From: Escherichia phage MLP1
Sequence record: NC_079176
Strand: one strand, 5' to 3'
DNA: 51,940 bases
The notes under the pieces were generated by a model, which ran no database searches, was not told where the DNA came from, and saw only the letters and a list, made by a program, of their open reading frames with translations. How positions within the stretch are numbered: the stretch's first letter is position 1; each line of letters opens with the position of its first letter. Below, piece after piece: positions 23,922 to 37,724 of this stretch. The position numbers and the translations under genes were made by a program.

Positions 23922-23955
23922 TCCGTGCTGTGCTAACAATGGCACAGGTTTGTGA

Positions 23956-23972
23956 TATTAGTTGGACGTGAA
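23956..23972 (+). promoter_or_regulatory. copy of recurrent 17-bp motif (tATTAGTTGGAcGTGAA), candidate phage promoter
   Basis: Member of an 8-copy family with consensus CATTAGTTGGATGTGAA, all in + orientation; 67 bp upstream of RNAP start. Confidence 0.4.
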
Positions 23973-24038
23973 TTGTGTAATGGCTACGCTATTATAATCC
24001 GTTTCATTCAAATCATACACAATCTTGGAGACTTACAA

Positions 24039-25979
24039 ATGACTACTATCACTACTCAAACTATCAAATCTGTTGTTCCTGCTATCACTGCTCTGGTATA
24101 CCGTGCCAAAGAGAAGCAGAACTACATGGTTCCACAGACTTGTGCTATTGCTGCCTTAGCCATATTCAAGATGATGACGTCTTTCACGCGTGATGACGTT
24201 ATTCCTGCTATCTCGATGGTTGAACTGGCTTCTGCTTCCATTGCTGATGCCAACCGTTACAACAACGACTTAAAGTCAATGCACTATGTTGACCCAGCTA
24301 TCAACCTCATTGGTTTGGCTAAACACTTCGGTTTCATCACCATGAACGAAGACAAATCGTTCCAGATGACTGATGCGTGGGTTGAACTGGTTACAACCAA
24401 AGATACCTCAGTTCCATTCACTGAGCGGGTAACAACTGAATCTCGTCGTAAGCCTTTCGTTAAGGGTGGCAAAGTTAAGCCATCCAAGACTCTGAAAGCT
24501 GCAATCGAATTCCTGCAAGATACTGAATATCACGTTGATGCAACAATGGTTAAGGTTATCTCTTCCATGTTAGAACAACGTACATTTGGTGGCTTACAGA
24601 TGCCAGAAGCAATCCAGACTGAACTCCATGTTTGGAACAATGCTGTAGCAATGGTTGGTCAGGACACTCTGTTCTCTGACTACTTTGCTGATAACCGTGG
24701 TCGTTTATATCACGTAGCATGTGCTGGTCCTAACCCACAATCATCTGACTTTGCTCGTTGCCTGTATTCCCACAATGTTGAGAACACTGTGAGCAAGTTT
24801 AATGCTGATGGTTCAACAACTCTGGCATACAACATGTTCATGCTTGAGCTGGAAGATATTGCTGGTGGAGACTGGACTTCTGCAAAACGTTTAACTTATG
24901 TTGCACAGAATCCTGCTGGTTCTTTGGCTCGTATGCTGAACATGCCTAAAGGTGAGCGTCCTTCCAAGCCATTCACTTATGTTCGTCTGGCTCTGGATTG
25001 GTTCAAGTTTGAGACTACAGGTGAGTGTGATTCTCGTGTAGGCTTTGGCTTAGATGCTAAATGTTCTGGTACTCAATACTTGGCATTCATTGCTGGTAAC
25101 ATGGAGATGGCTCGTGCAACAGGTCTGGTTGATTCTGAGACTAAAGCATCTGACCCATACCAGTTATCTCTTCGTGAACTGTTGAAGTTATTAGACCGTT
25201 CTTCAATGAAACCATCCGCTGAAATTATGGATGAATTCTTGAATCCGAAAGCTGGTCGTAAGTTTATCAAGACTCCATACATGGCTATTCAATATGGTGG
25301 TGGTAAAGCAGCATTAACTGGTTCTTCTGACTTCATTGCATACATGACAGAAGCTCTCCAGATTCCTATGGAGAAAGCTGATGCATTTGCTGAACTGTGT
25401 GTTGAAGCAATTCATAACGCATTGGGTGCTAAGATTAACATGTTCATTGAGAAAGCTGCTGATGCTGCATACAACCGTTGTGTTGAACTCAACAAAGAGT
25501 ACATCACATATAAGCACACTGATGGTCAAGTTGTAATGAAGCCTTGCTTCCCATCTCGTGATGTTTGTGATGCATTCAGCATTCGTGTTGACTCTCAAAC
25601 TCGTGTCATCTTTGGTCAGATTCAGGAAGAGAAACCTTGGACCATTCGTGAGTCCAATCCGACTAAAGAAGAATTCAAACGTACCTTCGTTGTTAACTAC
25701 ATTCAAGGTATTGACGCATTGGTTGCTCGTACTGTTGCAGTCAAAGCTAAAGAAGCTGGTCTTCGTGGCTTTACTTCAATTCACGACTGTTTCCGTTGCT
25801 GCTTAGCTGATGCTCCACTCATGATGGAAGTAATTCGTTCTGCTTATATTGAAATCTTTGTTAATAATAATCAGTTTGAATCTCTATCTAAGCAACTTGG
25901 TGGCATCAACATGTACCATGAGAACATCGTAACAGAAGAGCTTCTGATGAGCGAACACGCTTACTACTTCTGTCAATAA
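24039..25979 (+). CDS. single-subunit T7-type DNA-dependent RNA polymerase, compact form
   Basis: DAKCSGTQY (T7 motif A DGSCSGIQHF), RKFIKTPYMAIQYGGG (motif B), FTSIHDCF (motif C, T7 IHDSFG); ATG 24039 has GGAG ribosome-binding site; ORF track's upstream start at 23952 has none. Confidence 0.85.
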   Translation: MTTITTQTIKSVVPAITALVYRAKEKQNYMVPQTCAIAALAIFKMMTSFTRDDVIPAISMVELASASIADANRYNNDLKSMHYVDPAINLIGLAKHFGFITMNEDKSFQMTDAWVELVTTKDTSVPFTERVTTESRRKPFVKGGKVKPSKTLKAAIEFLQDTEYHVDATMVKVISSMLEQRTFGGLQMPEAIQTELHVWNNAVAMVGQDTLFSDYFADNRGRLYHVACAGPNPQSSDFARCLYSHNVENTVSKFNADGSTTLAYNMFMLELEDIAGGDWTSAKRLTYVAQNPAGSLARMLNMPKGERPSKPFTYVRLALDWFKFETTGECDSRVGFGLDAKCSGTQYLAFIAGNMEMARATGLVDSETKASDPYQLSLRELLKLLDRSSMKPSAEIMDEFLNPKAGRKFIKTPYMAIQYGGGKAALTGSSDFIAYMTEALQIPMEKADAFAELCVEAIHNALGAKINMFIEKAADAAYNRCVELNKEYITYKHTDGQVVMKPCFPSRDVCDAFSIRVDSQTRVIFGQIQEEKPWTIRESNPTKEEFKRTFVVNYIQGIDALVARTVAVKAKEAGLRGFTSIHDCFRCCLADAPLMMEVIRSAYIEIFVNNNQFESLSKQLGGINMYHENIVTEELLMSEHAYYFCQ

Positions 25980-30107: not shown

Positions 30108-30158
30108 GGCGCGTTAAATTAACAAGGAGCATTCATTGAGTGTTCCTGATTAATTCAA

Positions 30159-30175
30159 CATTAGTTGGATGTGAG
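30159..30175 (+). promoter_or_regulatory. 17-bp motif copy CATTAGTTGGATGTGAg
   Basis: 75 bp upstream of the SSB-tail gene. Confidence 0.4.
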
Positions 30176-32518: not shown

Positions 32519-32790
32519 TTTCAATTGACCAAGTTCCAGTTGAGTTGAGTAAGGCAAAAGGTAAGTTGGACAATGCCAAATCCGACTTGTCGACCTTTGA
32601 TTTAAATGCTCCAGCCGATAAAGTTAAAGTTTTCATCGACTGTATTGACGGATGGGTGCTTATTGAGCATGGAGTCCTTCGAGCATTACTTGTTGATGAA
32701 GTTGCCAAGGCTCAGAAAGCATTTGATGAACTTGATAACCTCAACACACTGTTAAACAATACTTTAAACGATGCGTTAAAGGGTAAATAA
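32515..32790 (+). CDS. hypothetical protein
   Basis: ATGA overlap; helical and charged. Confidence 0.35.
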   Translation: MISIDQVPVELSKAKGKLDNAKSDLSTFDLNAPADKVKVFIDCIDGWVLIEHGVLRALLVDEVAKAQKAFDELDNLNTLLNNTLNDALKGK

Positions 32791-33185
32791 TGAATGTTAA
32801 GCTCGGTCAACGTTCTTTAGACCGACTTAAGGGAGTAAATCCTTCATTAGTTGCAGTTTTCAAACGGGCATGTGAAACCATGCCTTTTGATGTAACTGTT
32901 TTGGAAGGTTTACGCTCTTATGAACGTCAACAAGAACTGTTAAAGCAGGGTGCAACCAAAGTTTCTGTTAGCCGACACATGTCAGGCAACGCTTTGGACA
33001 TTGCACCATATCCAATTGACTGGAATGACCTTGAACGATTCCAAATTGTGGCTGAACACATGTTCAAAGCCGCAGAAGAGCTTGGAATTACTATTCGTTG
33101 GGGTGGAACATGGGAACGTTCATTCACTAAGCCAGTGAAATGGGCTAAATTCCTTGACGCACCTCATTTCGAACTTCCAGCATAA
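32790..33185 (+). CDS. peptidase M15 endolysin (L-alanyl-D-glutamate peptidase, T5-type)
   Basis: SRHMSGNALDIAPYPIDWNDLERF and GITIRWGGTW align with T5 endolysin GDAIDFAPYINGKIDWNDLEAF and GIKLRFGADW. Confidence 0.7.
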   Translation: MNVKLGQRSLDRLKGVNPSLVAVFKRACETMPFDVTVLEGLRSYERQQELLKQGATKVSVSRHMSGNALDIAPYPIDWNDLERFQIVAEHMFKAAEELGITIRWGGTWERSFTKPVKWAKFLDAPHFELPA

Positions 33186-33205
33186 CTTCATCAATGGAGC
33201 ATCCG

Positions 33206-33484
33206 ATGGAATATCAGGAAATACCGAAAGAATTAGAGCGTATGCAGGAGCGTACGTCTCGTGCAGAGGCAGAACTCCACCAACATTTGTCAAATCATGT
33301 GCAAGATTCCCGTAGTCTGAGACACGAAATTGAGGTTGGCAGATGCTGCTATCTAGTAACATATGAAGAGAAGACCGCCATCCTGGACATACTAGTAAAG
33401 GGCGGGAAAGGGCGAATCGAACAGCTCAAAATCCTTAATATGGAACTTCAAGGTATGTGGGAGAAACTCAATGCAAAACGATAA
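33206..33484 (+). CDS. hypothetical protein
   Basis: ATG 33206 has GGAG ribosome-binding site (track start 33194 lacks one). Confidence 0.35.
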   Translation: MEYQEIPKELERMQERTSRAEAELHQHLSNHVQDSRSLRHEIEVGRCCYLVTYEEKTAILDILVKGGKGRIEQLKILNMELQGMWEKLNAKR

Positions 33485-34019
33485 CATTACTAAAGCAGTG
33501 GAACAACTTAAGTCCTGGCGTAGAGATGAAACATTATTGGTTCGTTTCTACACAGGCGAAACTAATTCTGAATTTGAAGATGCGTGGATTGATGGTCTGG
33601 CATGGCGGCTCTATGACTTCAACATGTCAGAATATTTGCACGAAGAATATGGCATCGAGTACCCAGAAACAGGGACTTATGACATTCTCGAATCAAACGA
33701 AGAAGATGTTACAGAAATTTGCTTTGTTGATGGACTGTTCAGCATTCGCAGATATGACAAGTTCAACGAACTGCTTACTGACACTGACTTGGATATAATT
33801 CTTGCTGCATTCCGTAGCGATGAAATTGACATTTTCACTGTTGACGACTTGAACGACATGTTCATCACACGTTGCGACTCAATTGCAGACTATTTCAAGC
33901 AAAGTGAAGCACTGGATATTCCAGACCGCCTTGCACCATACATTGATTGGGAAGCAATTGTGAAAGACTTCGGCAGTGACTACATCTTCTCCGAAGGAGT
34001 ATTGTTCTTAAATGTGTGA
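33471..34019 (+). CDS. ardA: ArdA-like antirestriction protein (acidic DNA mimic), tentative
   Basis: Strongly acidic 182-aa protein; C-terminal YIDWEAIVKDFGSDYIFSEGVLF resembles the ArdA C-terminal block as recalled from memory. Confidence 0.45.
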   Translation: MQNDNITKAVEQLKSWRRDETLLVRFYTGETNSEFEDAWIDGLAWRLYDFNMSEYLHEEYGIEYPETGTYDILESNEEDVTEICFVDGLFSIRRYDKFNELLTDTDLDIILAAFRSDEIDIFTVDDLNDMFITRCDSIADYFKQSEALDIPDRLAPYIDWEAIVKDFGSDYIFSEGVLFLNV

Positions 34020-34248
34020 TTTAAATATTAACTCGGTCAAGCCAGAAGATATTCTCTTCCACCAGCCACGCGGCCACTACTATCGAATCCTGTTTGCTAC
34101 AAAGATTAAAACTCACTGCGGTCAGTGGGTAGATGGTTTTGCTTACCAGGAAGTTAAGAAGTATGGAAATCATACTTTCTTTGGTGTTGATTCGATAATT
34201 TATTCAAGACCAAAGGAACTGTTTGACTCAGATTGGAAAACACTATAG
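34012..34248 (+). CDS. hypothetical protein
   Basis: 78-aa ORF overlapping upstream stop. Confidence 0.35.
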   Translation: MCDLNINSVKPEDILFHQPRGHYYRILFATKIKTHCGQWVDGFAYQEVKKYGNHTFFGVDSIIYSRPKELFDSDWKTL

Positions 34249-34318
34249 TTCCAGGCGGGTTTCTTCGAAGTGCCAAGCGGGTTTTGTACTCGCATTGGCC
34301 TTCGGCTTTAGTCTGAAA

Positions 34319-34334
34319 CATTAGTGGGATTTGA
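34319..34334 (+). promoter_or_regulatory. diverged 17-bp motif copy (CATTAGTgGGATtTGA)
   Basis: Shares TCTGAAACATTAGT upstream context with the 34463 copy. Confidence 0.3.
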
Positions 34335-34462
34335 TTCTGACCTCTTAGGGAAGAAAGGCATTATACACCTATCGCCAAATGGGTGTCAAGAACTTTCTTC
34401 ATTTATTTTAATTTATTCTTATTATTATTCTTTTTGTTTGGAATATTGGAATAATTCTGAAA

Positions 34463-34479
34463 CATTAGTTGGAATTGAA
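34463..34479 (+). promoter_or_regulatory. 17-bp motif copy CATTAGTTGGAaTTGAA
   Basis: Lies in an 860-bp ORF-poor gap, about 630 nt upstream of the next gene. Confidence 0.35.
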
Positions 34480-36859: not shown

Positions 36860-37724
36860 ATCGATCTGGCGTGCACTGGAAGTTGTCCGGTGCTGCCTTG
36901 AACCCATTCCCAAGAGTGAGTGGGCTTCAATGAGCATTCTTGTGATTAGAGTTGGGAGGTAGGCCGATGCCCAATCTCGTGGCCCCGACAAGAGTGTTCA
37001 TTGAAGTAGTTTTCTGAGTCTTACGACGGGCCTAAACTGCCTGAAGTTATTGCGACTGTTTTATTCATTTAAAATAAATGCAAACGATTCTGAAATGCGA
37101 GTTGCAGCTTAATTAAATTTAAGTTCTCTCCGTGGTCTTCCAATCCCATGTAACCAAATTTGGCGCATTGTGGCTTCGAGATGTGATTAATAAATCGGAG
37201 CAATAATTAATTTGTATTCTGCGATGTAATGCAGACTTAAGTCCCTCAGTGCGCGTAGGGATGTGACAGAGTACAAACTTAATTATGCAGTTGGATATTT
37301 CCGGAGGACGGACGAGCACACTGGAATGTCTTCAATTGGTTTAGTGTGAGAAGCTATGCCAATGTGGAACGTAACTCCTTGAGGAAGTGCTCCTTTGGAT
37401 TTCCCTCCACACAGGAATCTCAAGCCTGTGGCAGCGACTTCGAAGCTGCACTGTATAACCTAATTCGCCCTAAAGTGAATTGCCCTGAGTATGGAAATAA
37501 ACTGCTCTAACCAATGGTTTCCACAACGGTGGAATAAATTAGGTTGCCTGTTGGTACTTGGGTTCAACACCTGCTTGCACTCGCAAAGTAGTGCCTCGTA
37601 CCTGAGATGAAGTGAGTCGGGACCATCAATCCACGGCAGGCCGAAGATACCAAACAGGCGGCTCACTGATTCTACAAGCCTCGCAGTTCGGGAAAACCTG
37701 CGTTACCAAAACCCACCAAATTTT

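What the first reader, a model, noticed from the sequence alone, without database searches (positions are those of the whole stretch)
33471..34019. ArdA-like acidic antirestriction candidate in the early region
A strongly acidic 182-aa early protein whose C-terminal block resembles the ArdA family. It would act as a DNA mimic against type I restriction-modification systems.
Basis: partly seen in the sequence, partly recalled or inferred. Interest (0 to 1): 0.5.

Follow-up and report, generated by a model that had tools for sequence, protein, structure and literature searches.

The report
Divergent ArdA-type antirestriction gene in phage
This gene of a phiEcoM-GJ1-like E. coli phage encodes a very acidic, divergent relative of ArdA, a DNA-mimicking protein that blocks bacterial type I restriction enzymes; related phage records already label the gene this way, so it is ordinary, although nobody has tested it.

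Summary
The ORF is real: 33471..34019 on the + strand, 182 aa, pI 4.05, net charge -29. It is the most acidic protein per residue in the window and is under purifying selection (dN/dS 0.12-0.24).

The window is essentially Escherichia phage MLP1 (Chaseviridae, phiEcoM-GJ1 group). The GJ1 orthologue (gp22) is annotated "putative antirestriction protein", and PHROG 14321 carries the same label. MLP1 itself mislabels the protein "tail fiber protein".

Evidence for ArdA:
- Pfam ArdA alone is sub-threshold (17.3 bits against a cut-off of 27, C-terminal part only).
- Clade relatives pass the cut-off.
- A profile-profile comparison with canonical ArdA gives 99.25% probability (E 5.9e-20).
- The dimer-interface "anti-restriction motif" and the essential VF motif are conserved.

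Tested one domain at a time, only domain 3 is significant by sequence. Domains 1-2 rest on the predicted fold and on bridging sequences.

Differences from canonical ArdA are an extra N-terminal helix, an unusually conserved domain 1 and mosaic alleles.

The most likely function is DNA mimicry that inhibits type I restriction-modification enzymes, which is untested. Novelty and interest are low.

The parts
33471..34019 (+). Coding sequence of the ArdA-like acidic protein (182 aa plus stop codon)
33459..33465 (+). Ribosome-binding site GGGAGAA, 5 nt upstream of the ATG
   Evidence: Read from the sequence. The same Shine-Dalgarno sequence is listed for the ST32 orthologue in PMC6266442, Table 2.
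33471..33530 (+). Residues 1-20: clade-specific N-terminal helix that canonical ArdA lacks
   Evidence: The AlphaFold model has a helix at residues 2-15, pLDDT about 78. Canonical ArdA sequences start at the next element in the merged alignment.
33531..33698 (+). Residues 21-76: domain 1 (strand, strand, helix, strand), containing the clade's most conserved motif W39-I40-D41-G-L-x-W45-R46-L-Y48-D-F50
   Evidence: Secondary structure from the model. Invariant columns. Mean identity is 51% within the divergent phage clade, against 28% for this domain in canonical ArdA. Sequence similarity to ArdA domain 1 on its own is not significant. Support comes from the fold match and from bridging sequences P0070 and P0103.
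33699..33848 (+). Residues 77-126: helical domain 2, including F114, which aligns with the essential F91 of Tn916 ArdA
   Evidence: Model helices at 78-84, 92-102 and 107-115. Residue mapping. Domain-only hhalign is weak: E 0.005, probability 7%.
33849..34016 (+). Residues 127-182: domain 3, the part with direct and significant sequence homology to ArdA
   Evidence: Domain-only hhalign: 99.1% probability, E 7.6e-19. The Pfam hit covers residues 92-173. Profile alignment to 2w82 residues 105-161.
33906..33950 (+). Residues 146-160 (EALDIPDRLAPYIDW): counterpart of the ArdA 'anti-restriction motif' (Tn916 residues 126-140), which forms the dimer interface
   Evidence: Mapping: V130->I150, P131->P151, L134->L154, Y137->Y157, I138->I158, D139->D159; D146->D166 lies just beyond the motif. 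The roles of these residues are taken from PMC2731889.
34002..34007 (+). L178-F179: counterpart of the essential ArdA 'VF motif' (I160-F161 in Tn916 ArdA)
   Evidence: Mapping. F179 is invariant in the clade and nearly invariant across 48 remote homologues.
30158..30174 (+). Nearest upstream phage-type promoter (ACATTAGTTGGATGTGA, exact match to the phiEcoM-GJ1 promoter core); probable start of the transcription unit that contains the gene
   Evidence: Nine matches, all on the + strand, against 0.27 expected. Promoters annotated in phiEcoM-GJ1.
34318..34334 (+). Next phage-type promoter downstream (a second one lies at 34462-34478); marks the start of the following transcription unit
   Evidence: These correspond to GJ1 promoters 4 and 5, which lie just after the orthologue's downstream neighbour.
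32790..33185 (+). Conserved upstream neighbour: M15 L-alanyl-D-glutamate peptidase (endolysin)
   Evidence: Pfam Peptidase_M15_4 and PHROG 465, endolysin. The same order is seen in GJ1, Faunus, 4HA13 and two metagenomic contigs.
33194..33484 (+). Small upstream ORF (96 aa, no family hit) that overlaps the start of the gene by 14 nt; absent from GJ1, present in ST32, Faunus and 4HA13
34012..34248 (+). Conserved downstream ORF (78 aa, PHROG 2652, function unknown) that overlaps the end of the gene by 8 nt
   Evidence: Conserved in GJ1, Faunus, 4HA13, ST32, L005 and L006.

Best explanation
The gene encodes a divergent member of the ArdA family of DNA-mimic antirestriction proteins.

Proposed mechanism, inferred from ArdA:
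1. The elongated three-domain monomer pairs head-to-head through domain 3, using the conserved IPxxLxxYID motif.
2. The dimer forms a curved rod studded with Asp and Glu that imitates the phosphate backbone of bent B-DNA (about 42 bp in Tn916 ArdA).
3. The rod occupies the DNA-binding groove of the methyltransferase core of type I restriction-modification enzymes such as EcoKI.
4. The enzyme therefore cannot bind and cut unmodified phage DNA in a new host.

Shown here by computation: the ORF is real and under selection; it is extremely acidic; domain 3 is homologous to ArdA; the predicted fold is ArdA-like along the whole length; the dimer-interface and VF-motif residues are conserved; and the gene keeps its position across Chaseviridae.

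Inferred, not shown: dimerisation, binding to type I enzymes, relief of restriction, and the timing of expression.
For: - PHROG 14321 'anti-restriction protein', E 3.6e-52.
- Pfam ArdA is the top hit for the window protein (17.3 bits). It is above the gathering score for clade relatives P0049, phiA050 and 4HA13 at 30-35 bits.
- 45 of 48 remote homologues recovered with the family profile from 1.84 billion representatives hit PF07275 at E <= 0.01.
- hhalign of the phage clade against nine Pfam-positive ArdA proteins: 99.25% probability, E 5.9e-20, 144 columns. Domain 3 alone gives E 7.6e-19.
- AlphaFold model: pLDDT 89.3, pTM 0.80.
- Foldseek against the PDB: ArdA 2w82_B is the only hit with E < 1 (E 1.7e-4, probability 1.00, TM 0.56/0.61, 175 columns).
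- Residues essential in Tn916 ArdA, or at its interface, are conserved: F91/F114, Y137/Y157, I138/I158, D139/D159, D146/D166, L134/L154, VF/LF178-179 (roles from PMC2731889).
- Net charge -29 and pI 4.05, within the range of canonical ArdA (-22 to -33).
- Type I target sites are present in the genome at roughly chance frequency (EcoKI 5, EcoBI 7, EcoR124I 18), so the phage is exposed to such enzymes.
Against: - No experiment exists for any member of this phage clade. I found none in the literature, and the ST32 record states 'No experimental evidence'.
- The window protein fails Pfam's curated cut-off.
- Domains 1 and 2 show no significant sequence similarity to ArdA on their own. Their assignment depends on a predicted model built from a shallow 12-sequence alignment; three of the five models had pLDDT 65-76.
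- The gene lies 7.5 kb downstream of the RNA polymerase gene and behind a phage-type promoter. This may be late for protecting DNA that a contractile-tailed phage injects all at once.
[quoted passage not shown] That hints at an additional or different constraint.
Confidence: 0.75

Rival explanations
1. It is an ArdA-fold DNA mimic whose main or additional target is not a type I restriction enzyme. Candidates are another DNA-binding defence system, or a host DNA-binding protein such as RNA polymerase or a nucleoid protein. The clade-specific N-terminal helix and the conserved domain 1 would supply the new specificity.
For: - Domain 1 is the most conserved part in the phage clade (51% mean identity against 29% for domain 3), the reverse of canonical ArdA (28% against 36%).
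- An extra N-terminal helix is present.
- DNA mimics differ in their targets: Ocr inhibits BREX, whereas ArdA does not (PMC10149784).
- The gene sits behind a phage-type promoter rather than at the leading end of the genome.
Against: - Nearly all residues that maintain the ArdA dimer and the domain 2/3 interface are kept.
- The charge density equals that of canonical ArdA.
- According to PMC2731889, all the ArdA proteins tested there act on type I systems.
- No sequence or structural similarity to any other family was found.
Confidence: 0.17
2. It is a structural (tail fibre) protein, as labelled in the GenBank records of MLP1 and the PYps phages, or a 'replication inhibitor' as labelled in phage Pel53.
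For: Only the product names in those records.
Against: - The gene lies in the non-structural cluster of small genes, far from the tail genes.
- No tail-fibre family or fold was hit.
- Orthologues in at least 15 other records are named antirestriction protein.
- The fold and motifs are those of ArdA.
Confidence: 0.01
3. It is an acidic protein of unrelated function, and its resemblance to ArdA is due to chance or to composition.
For: The single-sequence Pfam score is below the cut-off. The single-sequence PDB search finds nothing. The profile search against PDB sequences gives only E 0.25 for 2w82.
Against: - Profile-profile E-values of 5.9e-20 and 7.6e-19.
- The matches fall on position-specific hydrophobic and aromatic residues (Y157, I158, F179, P151), not on acidic composition.
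- Two independent structure comparisons single out ArdA.
Confidence: 0.02

Closest known systems
ArdA of conjugative elements (Pfam PF07275; Tn916 Orf18, PDB 2w82; ColIb-P9 and pKM101 ArdA)
   Same: - About 160-180 aa, pI about 4, net charge -20 to -33.
- Predicted three-domain elongated fold in the same order: a strand-rich domain 1, a helical domain 2 and a mixed domain 3.
- Domain 3 is clearly homologous.
- The dimer-interface anti-restriction motif (IPxxLxxYID[WY]) and the terminal G-x-[VIL]-F motif are conserved.
- Carried by a mobile genetic element that enters new hosts.
   Different: - Encoded by a virulent myovirus rather than a plasmid or transposon.
- About 20 extra N-terminal residues form a helix.
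- Domain 1 carries a clade-specific, highly conserved WIDGLxWRLYDF segment and is not detectably similar to ArdA domain 1 by sequence alone.
- The Gly that is nearly invariant in the D-x-Y-x-G-x-Y-D-S segment is Thr133 in the MLP1/GJ1 subgroup.
- The protein scores below Pfam's cut-off, and tblastn finds no plasmid match.
- It lies behind a phage-RNA-polymerase-type promoter rather than in a plasmid leading region.
phiEcoM-GJ1 gp22 and its orthologues in Chaseviridae (PHROG 14321; ST32 gp26, 4HA13 gp22, flopper, Mangalitsa)
   Same: It is the direct orthologue: 79-91% identity within Carltongylesvirus-like phages, with the same position after the M15 peptidase gene. These genes are already annotated '(putative) antirestriction protein'.
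   Different: Nothing of substance differs. The MLP1 record (100% identical protein) calls it 'tail fiber protein'. Alleles are mosaic between phages.
Ocr (gene 0.3 protein) of phage T7
   Same: It would work in the same way: an acidic dimeric DNA mimic made by a phage that carries its own single-subunit RNA polymerase, and that blocks type I restriction-modification enzymes.
   Different: The fold and sequence are unrelated, with no hit in any search. Ocr is the first gene to enter the cell and is transcribed by the host polymerase. Ocr also inhibits BREX, whereas ArdA does not (PMC10149784).

Membership tests
ArdA (Pfam PF07275) | Statistically significant sequence homology to the family | tested here: met
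   - The single-sequence hmmscan is below the curated cut-off (17.3 bits against 27, E 0.0075), so this operational criterion alone is NOT met for this sequence.
- Relatives in the same clade (E 8e-25 to the query) pass it at 30-35 bits.
- Family-profile comparison with nine Pfam-positive ArdA proteins gives 99.25% probability, E 5.9e-20.
- 45 of 48 remote hits match PF07275 at E <= 0.01.
- The significant signal is confined to domain 3 (E 7.6e-19).
ArdA (Pfam PF07275) | Three-domain elongated fold as in Tn916 Orf18 (2w82): domain 1 with three strands and a helix, domain 2 helical, domain 3 with three strands and three helices | tested here: met
   - The AlphaFold model (pLDDT 89.3) has elements in exactly this order after an extra N-terminal helix.
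- Foldseek finds 2w82_B as the only significant hit (E 1.7e-4, TM 0.56/0.61, 175 columns).
- This rests on a predicted structure, not a solved one.
ArdA (Pfam PF07275) | Anti-restriction motif (Tn916 residues 126-140) that forms the dimer interface, with essential Y137 and I138 | tested here: met
   Y157, I158, D159, L154, I150, P151 and D166 align with Y137, I138, D139, L134, V130, P131 and D146. L127 aligns with A147, with L148 adjacent. Residue roles are from PMC2731889.
ArdA (Pfam PF07275) | Essential VF motif in the last strands of domain 3, and essential F91 in domain 2 | tested here: met
   L178-F179 align with I160-F161, and F179 is invariant in the clade. F114 aligns with F91. The domain 2 alignment has low confidence.
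ArdA (Pfam PF07275) | Strongly negative surface (pI about 4) that mimics the DNA backbone | tested here: met
   Net charge -29, pI 4.05, 23.6% Asp+Glu, spread over all three domains. The canonical set ranges from -22 to -33.
ArdA (Pfam PF07275) | Homodimer that binds the methyltransferase core of type I R-M enzymes and relieves restriction in vivo | not testable with these tools
   This needs plating-efficiency assays and binding assays. No published test of this clade was found.
Ocr (T7 gene 0.3 protein) | Sequence or fold similarity to Ocr | tested here: not met
   No Ocr hit in Pfam, PHROGs, PDB sequences or PDB folds.
Phage tail fibre protein (GenBank label of the identical MLP1 protein) | Similarity to tail-fibre families or folds, and a position in the tail module | tested here: not met
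   No such hit. The gene lies between the RNA polymerase gene and the replication genes.

The most novel reading that the evidence does not exclude
The Chaseviridae proteins form a distinct ArdA subfamily. In it, the added N-terminal helix and the unusually conserved domain 1 (WIDGLxWRLYDFxMxEYLxEEyGI) make a second functional surface. That surface might inhibit a defence other than type I R-M, or hide the mimic from host sensors of DNA mimics. The mosaic, fast-changing domains 2-3 would track the diversity of type I enzymes.
Probability: 0.15. Interest if true: 0.5.

Novelty: already known. Interest (0 to 1): 0.18.

Why it matters
If it is active, the protein would help this group of broad-host-range coliphages, some of them candidates for phage therapy, to cross type I restriction barriers between E. 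coli, Shigella and Yersinia strains.

The practical value here is mainly in annotation:
- The identical protein in phage MLP1, and those in the PYps phages, are mislabelled 'tail fiber protein'.
- The 'antirestriction' label on its relatives rests on a sub-threshold similarity that I can now back with profile and structure evidence.

It does not open a new question. A modest biological point is that this phage subfamily constrains domain 1 more strongly than domain 3, the reverse of the pattern in plasmid ArdA.

Tried and rejected
- A single-sequence phmmer search against PDB sequences found nothing relevant. NCBIfam gave no meaningful hit.
- tblastn against 72,556 plasmids gave no match at E <= 0.01, so there is no direct pairwise link to plasmid ardA genes.
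- The family profile against PDB sequences put 2w82 first, but only at E 0.25.
- The afdb50 fold library was unavailable.
- Domain-by-domain hhalign showed that the full-length alignment overstates the sequence evidence for domains 1-2. I therefore dropped the claim of sequence homology along the whole length. The case for these domains now rests on the fold match and on bridging sequences P0070 and P0103.
- The original phiEcoM-GJ1 paper (PMC2223254) is not held.
- The phage accessory-gene screen of PMC12373910 did test an 'ardA' (orf169), but it is WP_000129958.1, not this phage family.
- The sigma-70 promoter scan around the gene found no more sites than chance: 13 found, 13.0 expected.
- Avoidance of type I target sites was tested and not found. 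This fits reliance on an inhibitor but is weak evidence.

Full report
**Observation.** A GGGAGAA ribosome-binding site lies 5 nt upstream. The protein has 43 Asp+Glu against 14 Lys+Arg, giving net charge -29 and pI 4.05. Among 67 non-overlapping + strand ORFs of the window it is the most acidic per residue (z = -3.3). It is a real gene. It is conserved in 49 phage records, and pairwise dN/dS against the GJ1, ST32 and TH23 orthologues is 0.12-0.24.

**Where the window comes from.** The protein is 100% identical to a protein of Escherichia phage MLP1, found on a contig of 51,989 bp and named 'tail fiber protein' in NCBI. The surrounding DNA is 82-91% identical to phiEcoM-GJ1-like phages of E. 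coli, Shigella and Yersinia in the family Chaseviridae. The GJ1 record annotates the orthologue, ABR68734.1 (gp22 in the ST32 paper), as 'putative antirestriction protein'. At least 15 other records use the antirestriction label. PHROG 14321, 'anti-restriction protein', matches over the full length at E 3.6e-52.

**Is the ArdA label justified?**

*Sequence evidence*
- On its own the window protein does not pass Pfam's ArdA model. It scores 17.3 bits (E 0.0075) against a gathering score of 27, and only residues 92-173 match, to model positions 64-147.
- Divergent members of the same clade do pass, at 30-35 bits and again only against the C-terminal two-thirds of the model. These are P0049 and the proteins of phiA050 and 4HA13, at 31-38% identity to the query.
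- A profile of the clade, searched against 1.84 billion representative proteins, found 77 hits. I scanned 48 sequences (47 of those hits plus the window protein) against Pfam, and 45 matched PF07275 at E <= 0.01, the best at 1.2e-33.
- hhalign of the clade against nine proteins that pass Pfam's ArdA cut-off (eight of them across most of the model) gives 99.25% probability, E 5.9e-20, over 144 columns.

*Structure evidence*
- An AlphaFold model built from 12 clade sequences is confident: pLDDT 89.3, pTM 0.80. Three of the five models were weaker, at pLDDT 65-76.
- With Foldseek against the PDB, ArdA of Tn916 (2w82_B) is the only hit with E < 1: E 1.7e-4, probability 1.00, TM 0.56/0.61, 175 columns.
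- In the viral structure library the top hits are 'antirestriction proteins' of other Chaseviridae. ArdA-like proteins of unrelated phages follow.

**A qualification.** I repeated the profile-profile comparison one domain at a time.
- Domain 3 was significant (E 7.6e-19).
- Domain 2 was marginal (E 0.005, probability 7%).
- Domain 1 was not significant (E 0.17, only the W-I/V-D triplet aligned).

That domains 1-2 are also ArdA-like rests on two things. The first is the predicted fold: after an extra helix at 2-15, the elements run strand-strand-helix-strand, then helices, then a mixed domain, as described for Orf18 in PMC2731889. The second is a set of bridging sequences. P0070 and P0103 match the phage-clade profile from about residue 5 to the end and match the Pfam ArdA model from position 17-18.

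**Functional residues.** I took the roles of Tn916 ArdA residues from PMC2731889 and rebuilt its sequence in register. The motif, interface and essential positions map as follows.

| Tn916 ArdA | Window protein | Role |
|---|---|---|
| V130, P131, L134 | I150, P151, L154 | anti-restriction motif / dimer interface |
| Y137, I138 | Y157, I158 | essential, core of the interface |
| D139, D146 | D159, D166 | hydrogen bonds across the interface |
| I160-F161 | L178-F179 | essential VF motif |
| F91 | F114 | essential, domain 2 |
| L127 | A147 (L148 adjacent) | interface contact |

These are hydrophobic and aromatic positions, so the match is not an effect of acidic composition. Charge density equals that of canonical ArdA, which ranges from -22 to -33.

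**Mechanism.** The best-supported reading is an ArdA-type DNA mimic. A head-to-head dimer forms through domain 3. Its acidic surface imitates bent B-DNA and occupies the DNA-binding site of type I restriction-modification enzymes, protecting unmodified phage DNA. Only the homology, the fold prediction and the motif conservation are shown here. Dimerisation, target binding and relief of restriction are inferred from the family. The genome carries type I target sites at about chance frequency (EcoKI 5, EcoBI 7, EcoR124I 18), so it is not protected by avoiding such sites. By analogy with plasmid ArdA, activity against BREX or type III systems is not expected (PMC10149784).

**Context and timing.** All genes run on the + strand in this order:
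- T7-like RNA polymerase, 23952-25979
- about 13 kb of small genes
- ThyX (39495), primase-helicase (40151) and DNA polymerase A (41981)
- terminase (49049) and the structural genes

The gene lies in the small-gene cluster, so 'early region' is broadly right. Nine copies of the conserved phage promoter core annotated in GJ1 occur in the window, all on the + strand, against 0.27 expected. The gene sits in the unit between the promoters at 30158 and 34318. It is therefore probably transcribed after the phage polymerase has been made, which is later than T7 Ocr. Whether that is early enough to protect injected DNA is an open point.

The local order is M15 peptidase, a small ORF, the ArdA-like gene, then a small ORF. 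This order is kept down to 24% identity in Faunus, 4HA13 and two metagenomic contigs.

**What differs from canonical ArdA.**
- There is an N-terminal extension of about 20 residues, predicted to be helical.
- Domain 1 carries an invariant W39-I-D-x3-W45-R-x-Y48-x-F50 pattern.
- The conservation gradient is reversed. Among divergent clade members domain 1 is 51% identical and domain 3 is 29%. In canonical ArdA the figures are 28% and 36%.
- Thr133 replaces a Gly that is nearly invariant elsewhere.
- Alleles are mosaic among close relatives. P0047 is 89-95% identical over residues 1-76 but 48-51% over 77-182, and P0043 shows the opposite pattern.

These features allow, but do not demonstrate, an added function for the N-terminal part.

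**Verdict.** The gene is a divergent ArdA-family member that public annotation of related phages already recognises, and it is untested experimentally. Novelty is low. The useful outputs are firmer evidence for the label, a correction of the 'tail fiber protein' annotation, and a few subfamily-specific features worth a simple plating-efficiency experiment.

Noticed in passing
whole window; the single GATC is at 36863: GATC is almost absent: 1 occurrence against about 171-189 expected (z = -14). The other 4-base palindromes are near expectation; only CTAG is moderately low, at a ratio of 0.57. Several 6-base palindromes are absent despite 8-23 expected: TGATCA, AGATCT, CACGTG, AGTACT, GAGCTC and AGCGCT. 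This suggests strong selection against GATC-targeting restriction or against Dam/MutH-related processes, a second and separate anti-restriction strategy.
   Followed up: partly
whole window: The EcoP15I site CAGCAG is enriched (75 against 32 expected) and extremely strand-biased: 4 on the + strand and 71 on the - strand. Type III enzymes need inversely oriented sites, so a near-uniform orientation would make the genome largely refractory, as is known for T7. Codon bias on a genome transcribed from one strand may contribute. I did not separate the two effects.
   Followed up: partly
23955, 26275, 26531, 27393, 30158, 34318, 34462, 36426, 44023 (all + strand): There are nine copies of the 17-nt phage promoter core ACATTAGTTGGATGTGA with up to 3 mismatches, against 0.27 expected. 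They match the promoters annotated in phiEcoM-GJ1. The copy at 23955 lies inside the longest GTG-started RNA polymerase ORF (23952), so the true polymerase start codon is probably further downstream.
   Followed up: partly
33471-34019 and public records MLP1, PYps3T/4T/16T/23T, FXie-2024a, Pel53: Annotation is inconsistent. The identical or orthologous protein is called 'tail fiber protein' in MLP1, the PYps phages and FXie-2024a, and 'replication inhibitor protein' in 'Staphylococcus phage Pel53'. A Staphylococcus hyicus host label on a genome that encodes a protein 84.5% identical to this coliphage protein also looks doubtful.
   Followed up: no
33471-34019 compared with P0042, P0043, P0047, P0048: The ArdA-like gene has mosaic alleles among otherwise close phages. 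Segments 1-76 and 77-182 have sharply different identities (95/89% against 48/51% for P0047; 73-75% against 95-98% for P0042 and P0043). This indicates recombination within the gene.
   Followed up: partly
33194-33484 and protein P0005: The 96-aa upstream ORF overlaps the ArdA-like start by 14 nt and has no family hit. It is absent from GJ1 but present in ST32, Faunus and 4HA13. In one metagenomic contig a homologue of it is fused in frame to the ArdA-like protein, giving P0005 of 268 aa.
   Followed up: no
32790-33185: The M15 L-alanyl-D-glutamate peptidase (endolysin) gene sits in the cluster of small genes upstream of the replication module, immediately before the antirestriction module, rather than with the late structural genes. 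This placement is conserved across Chaseviridae.
   Followed up: no
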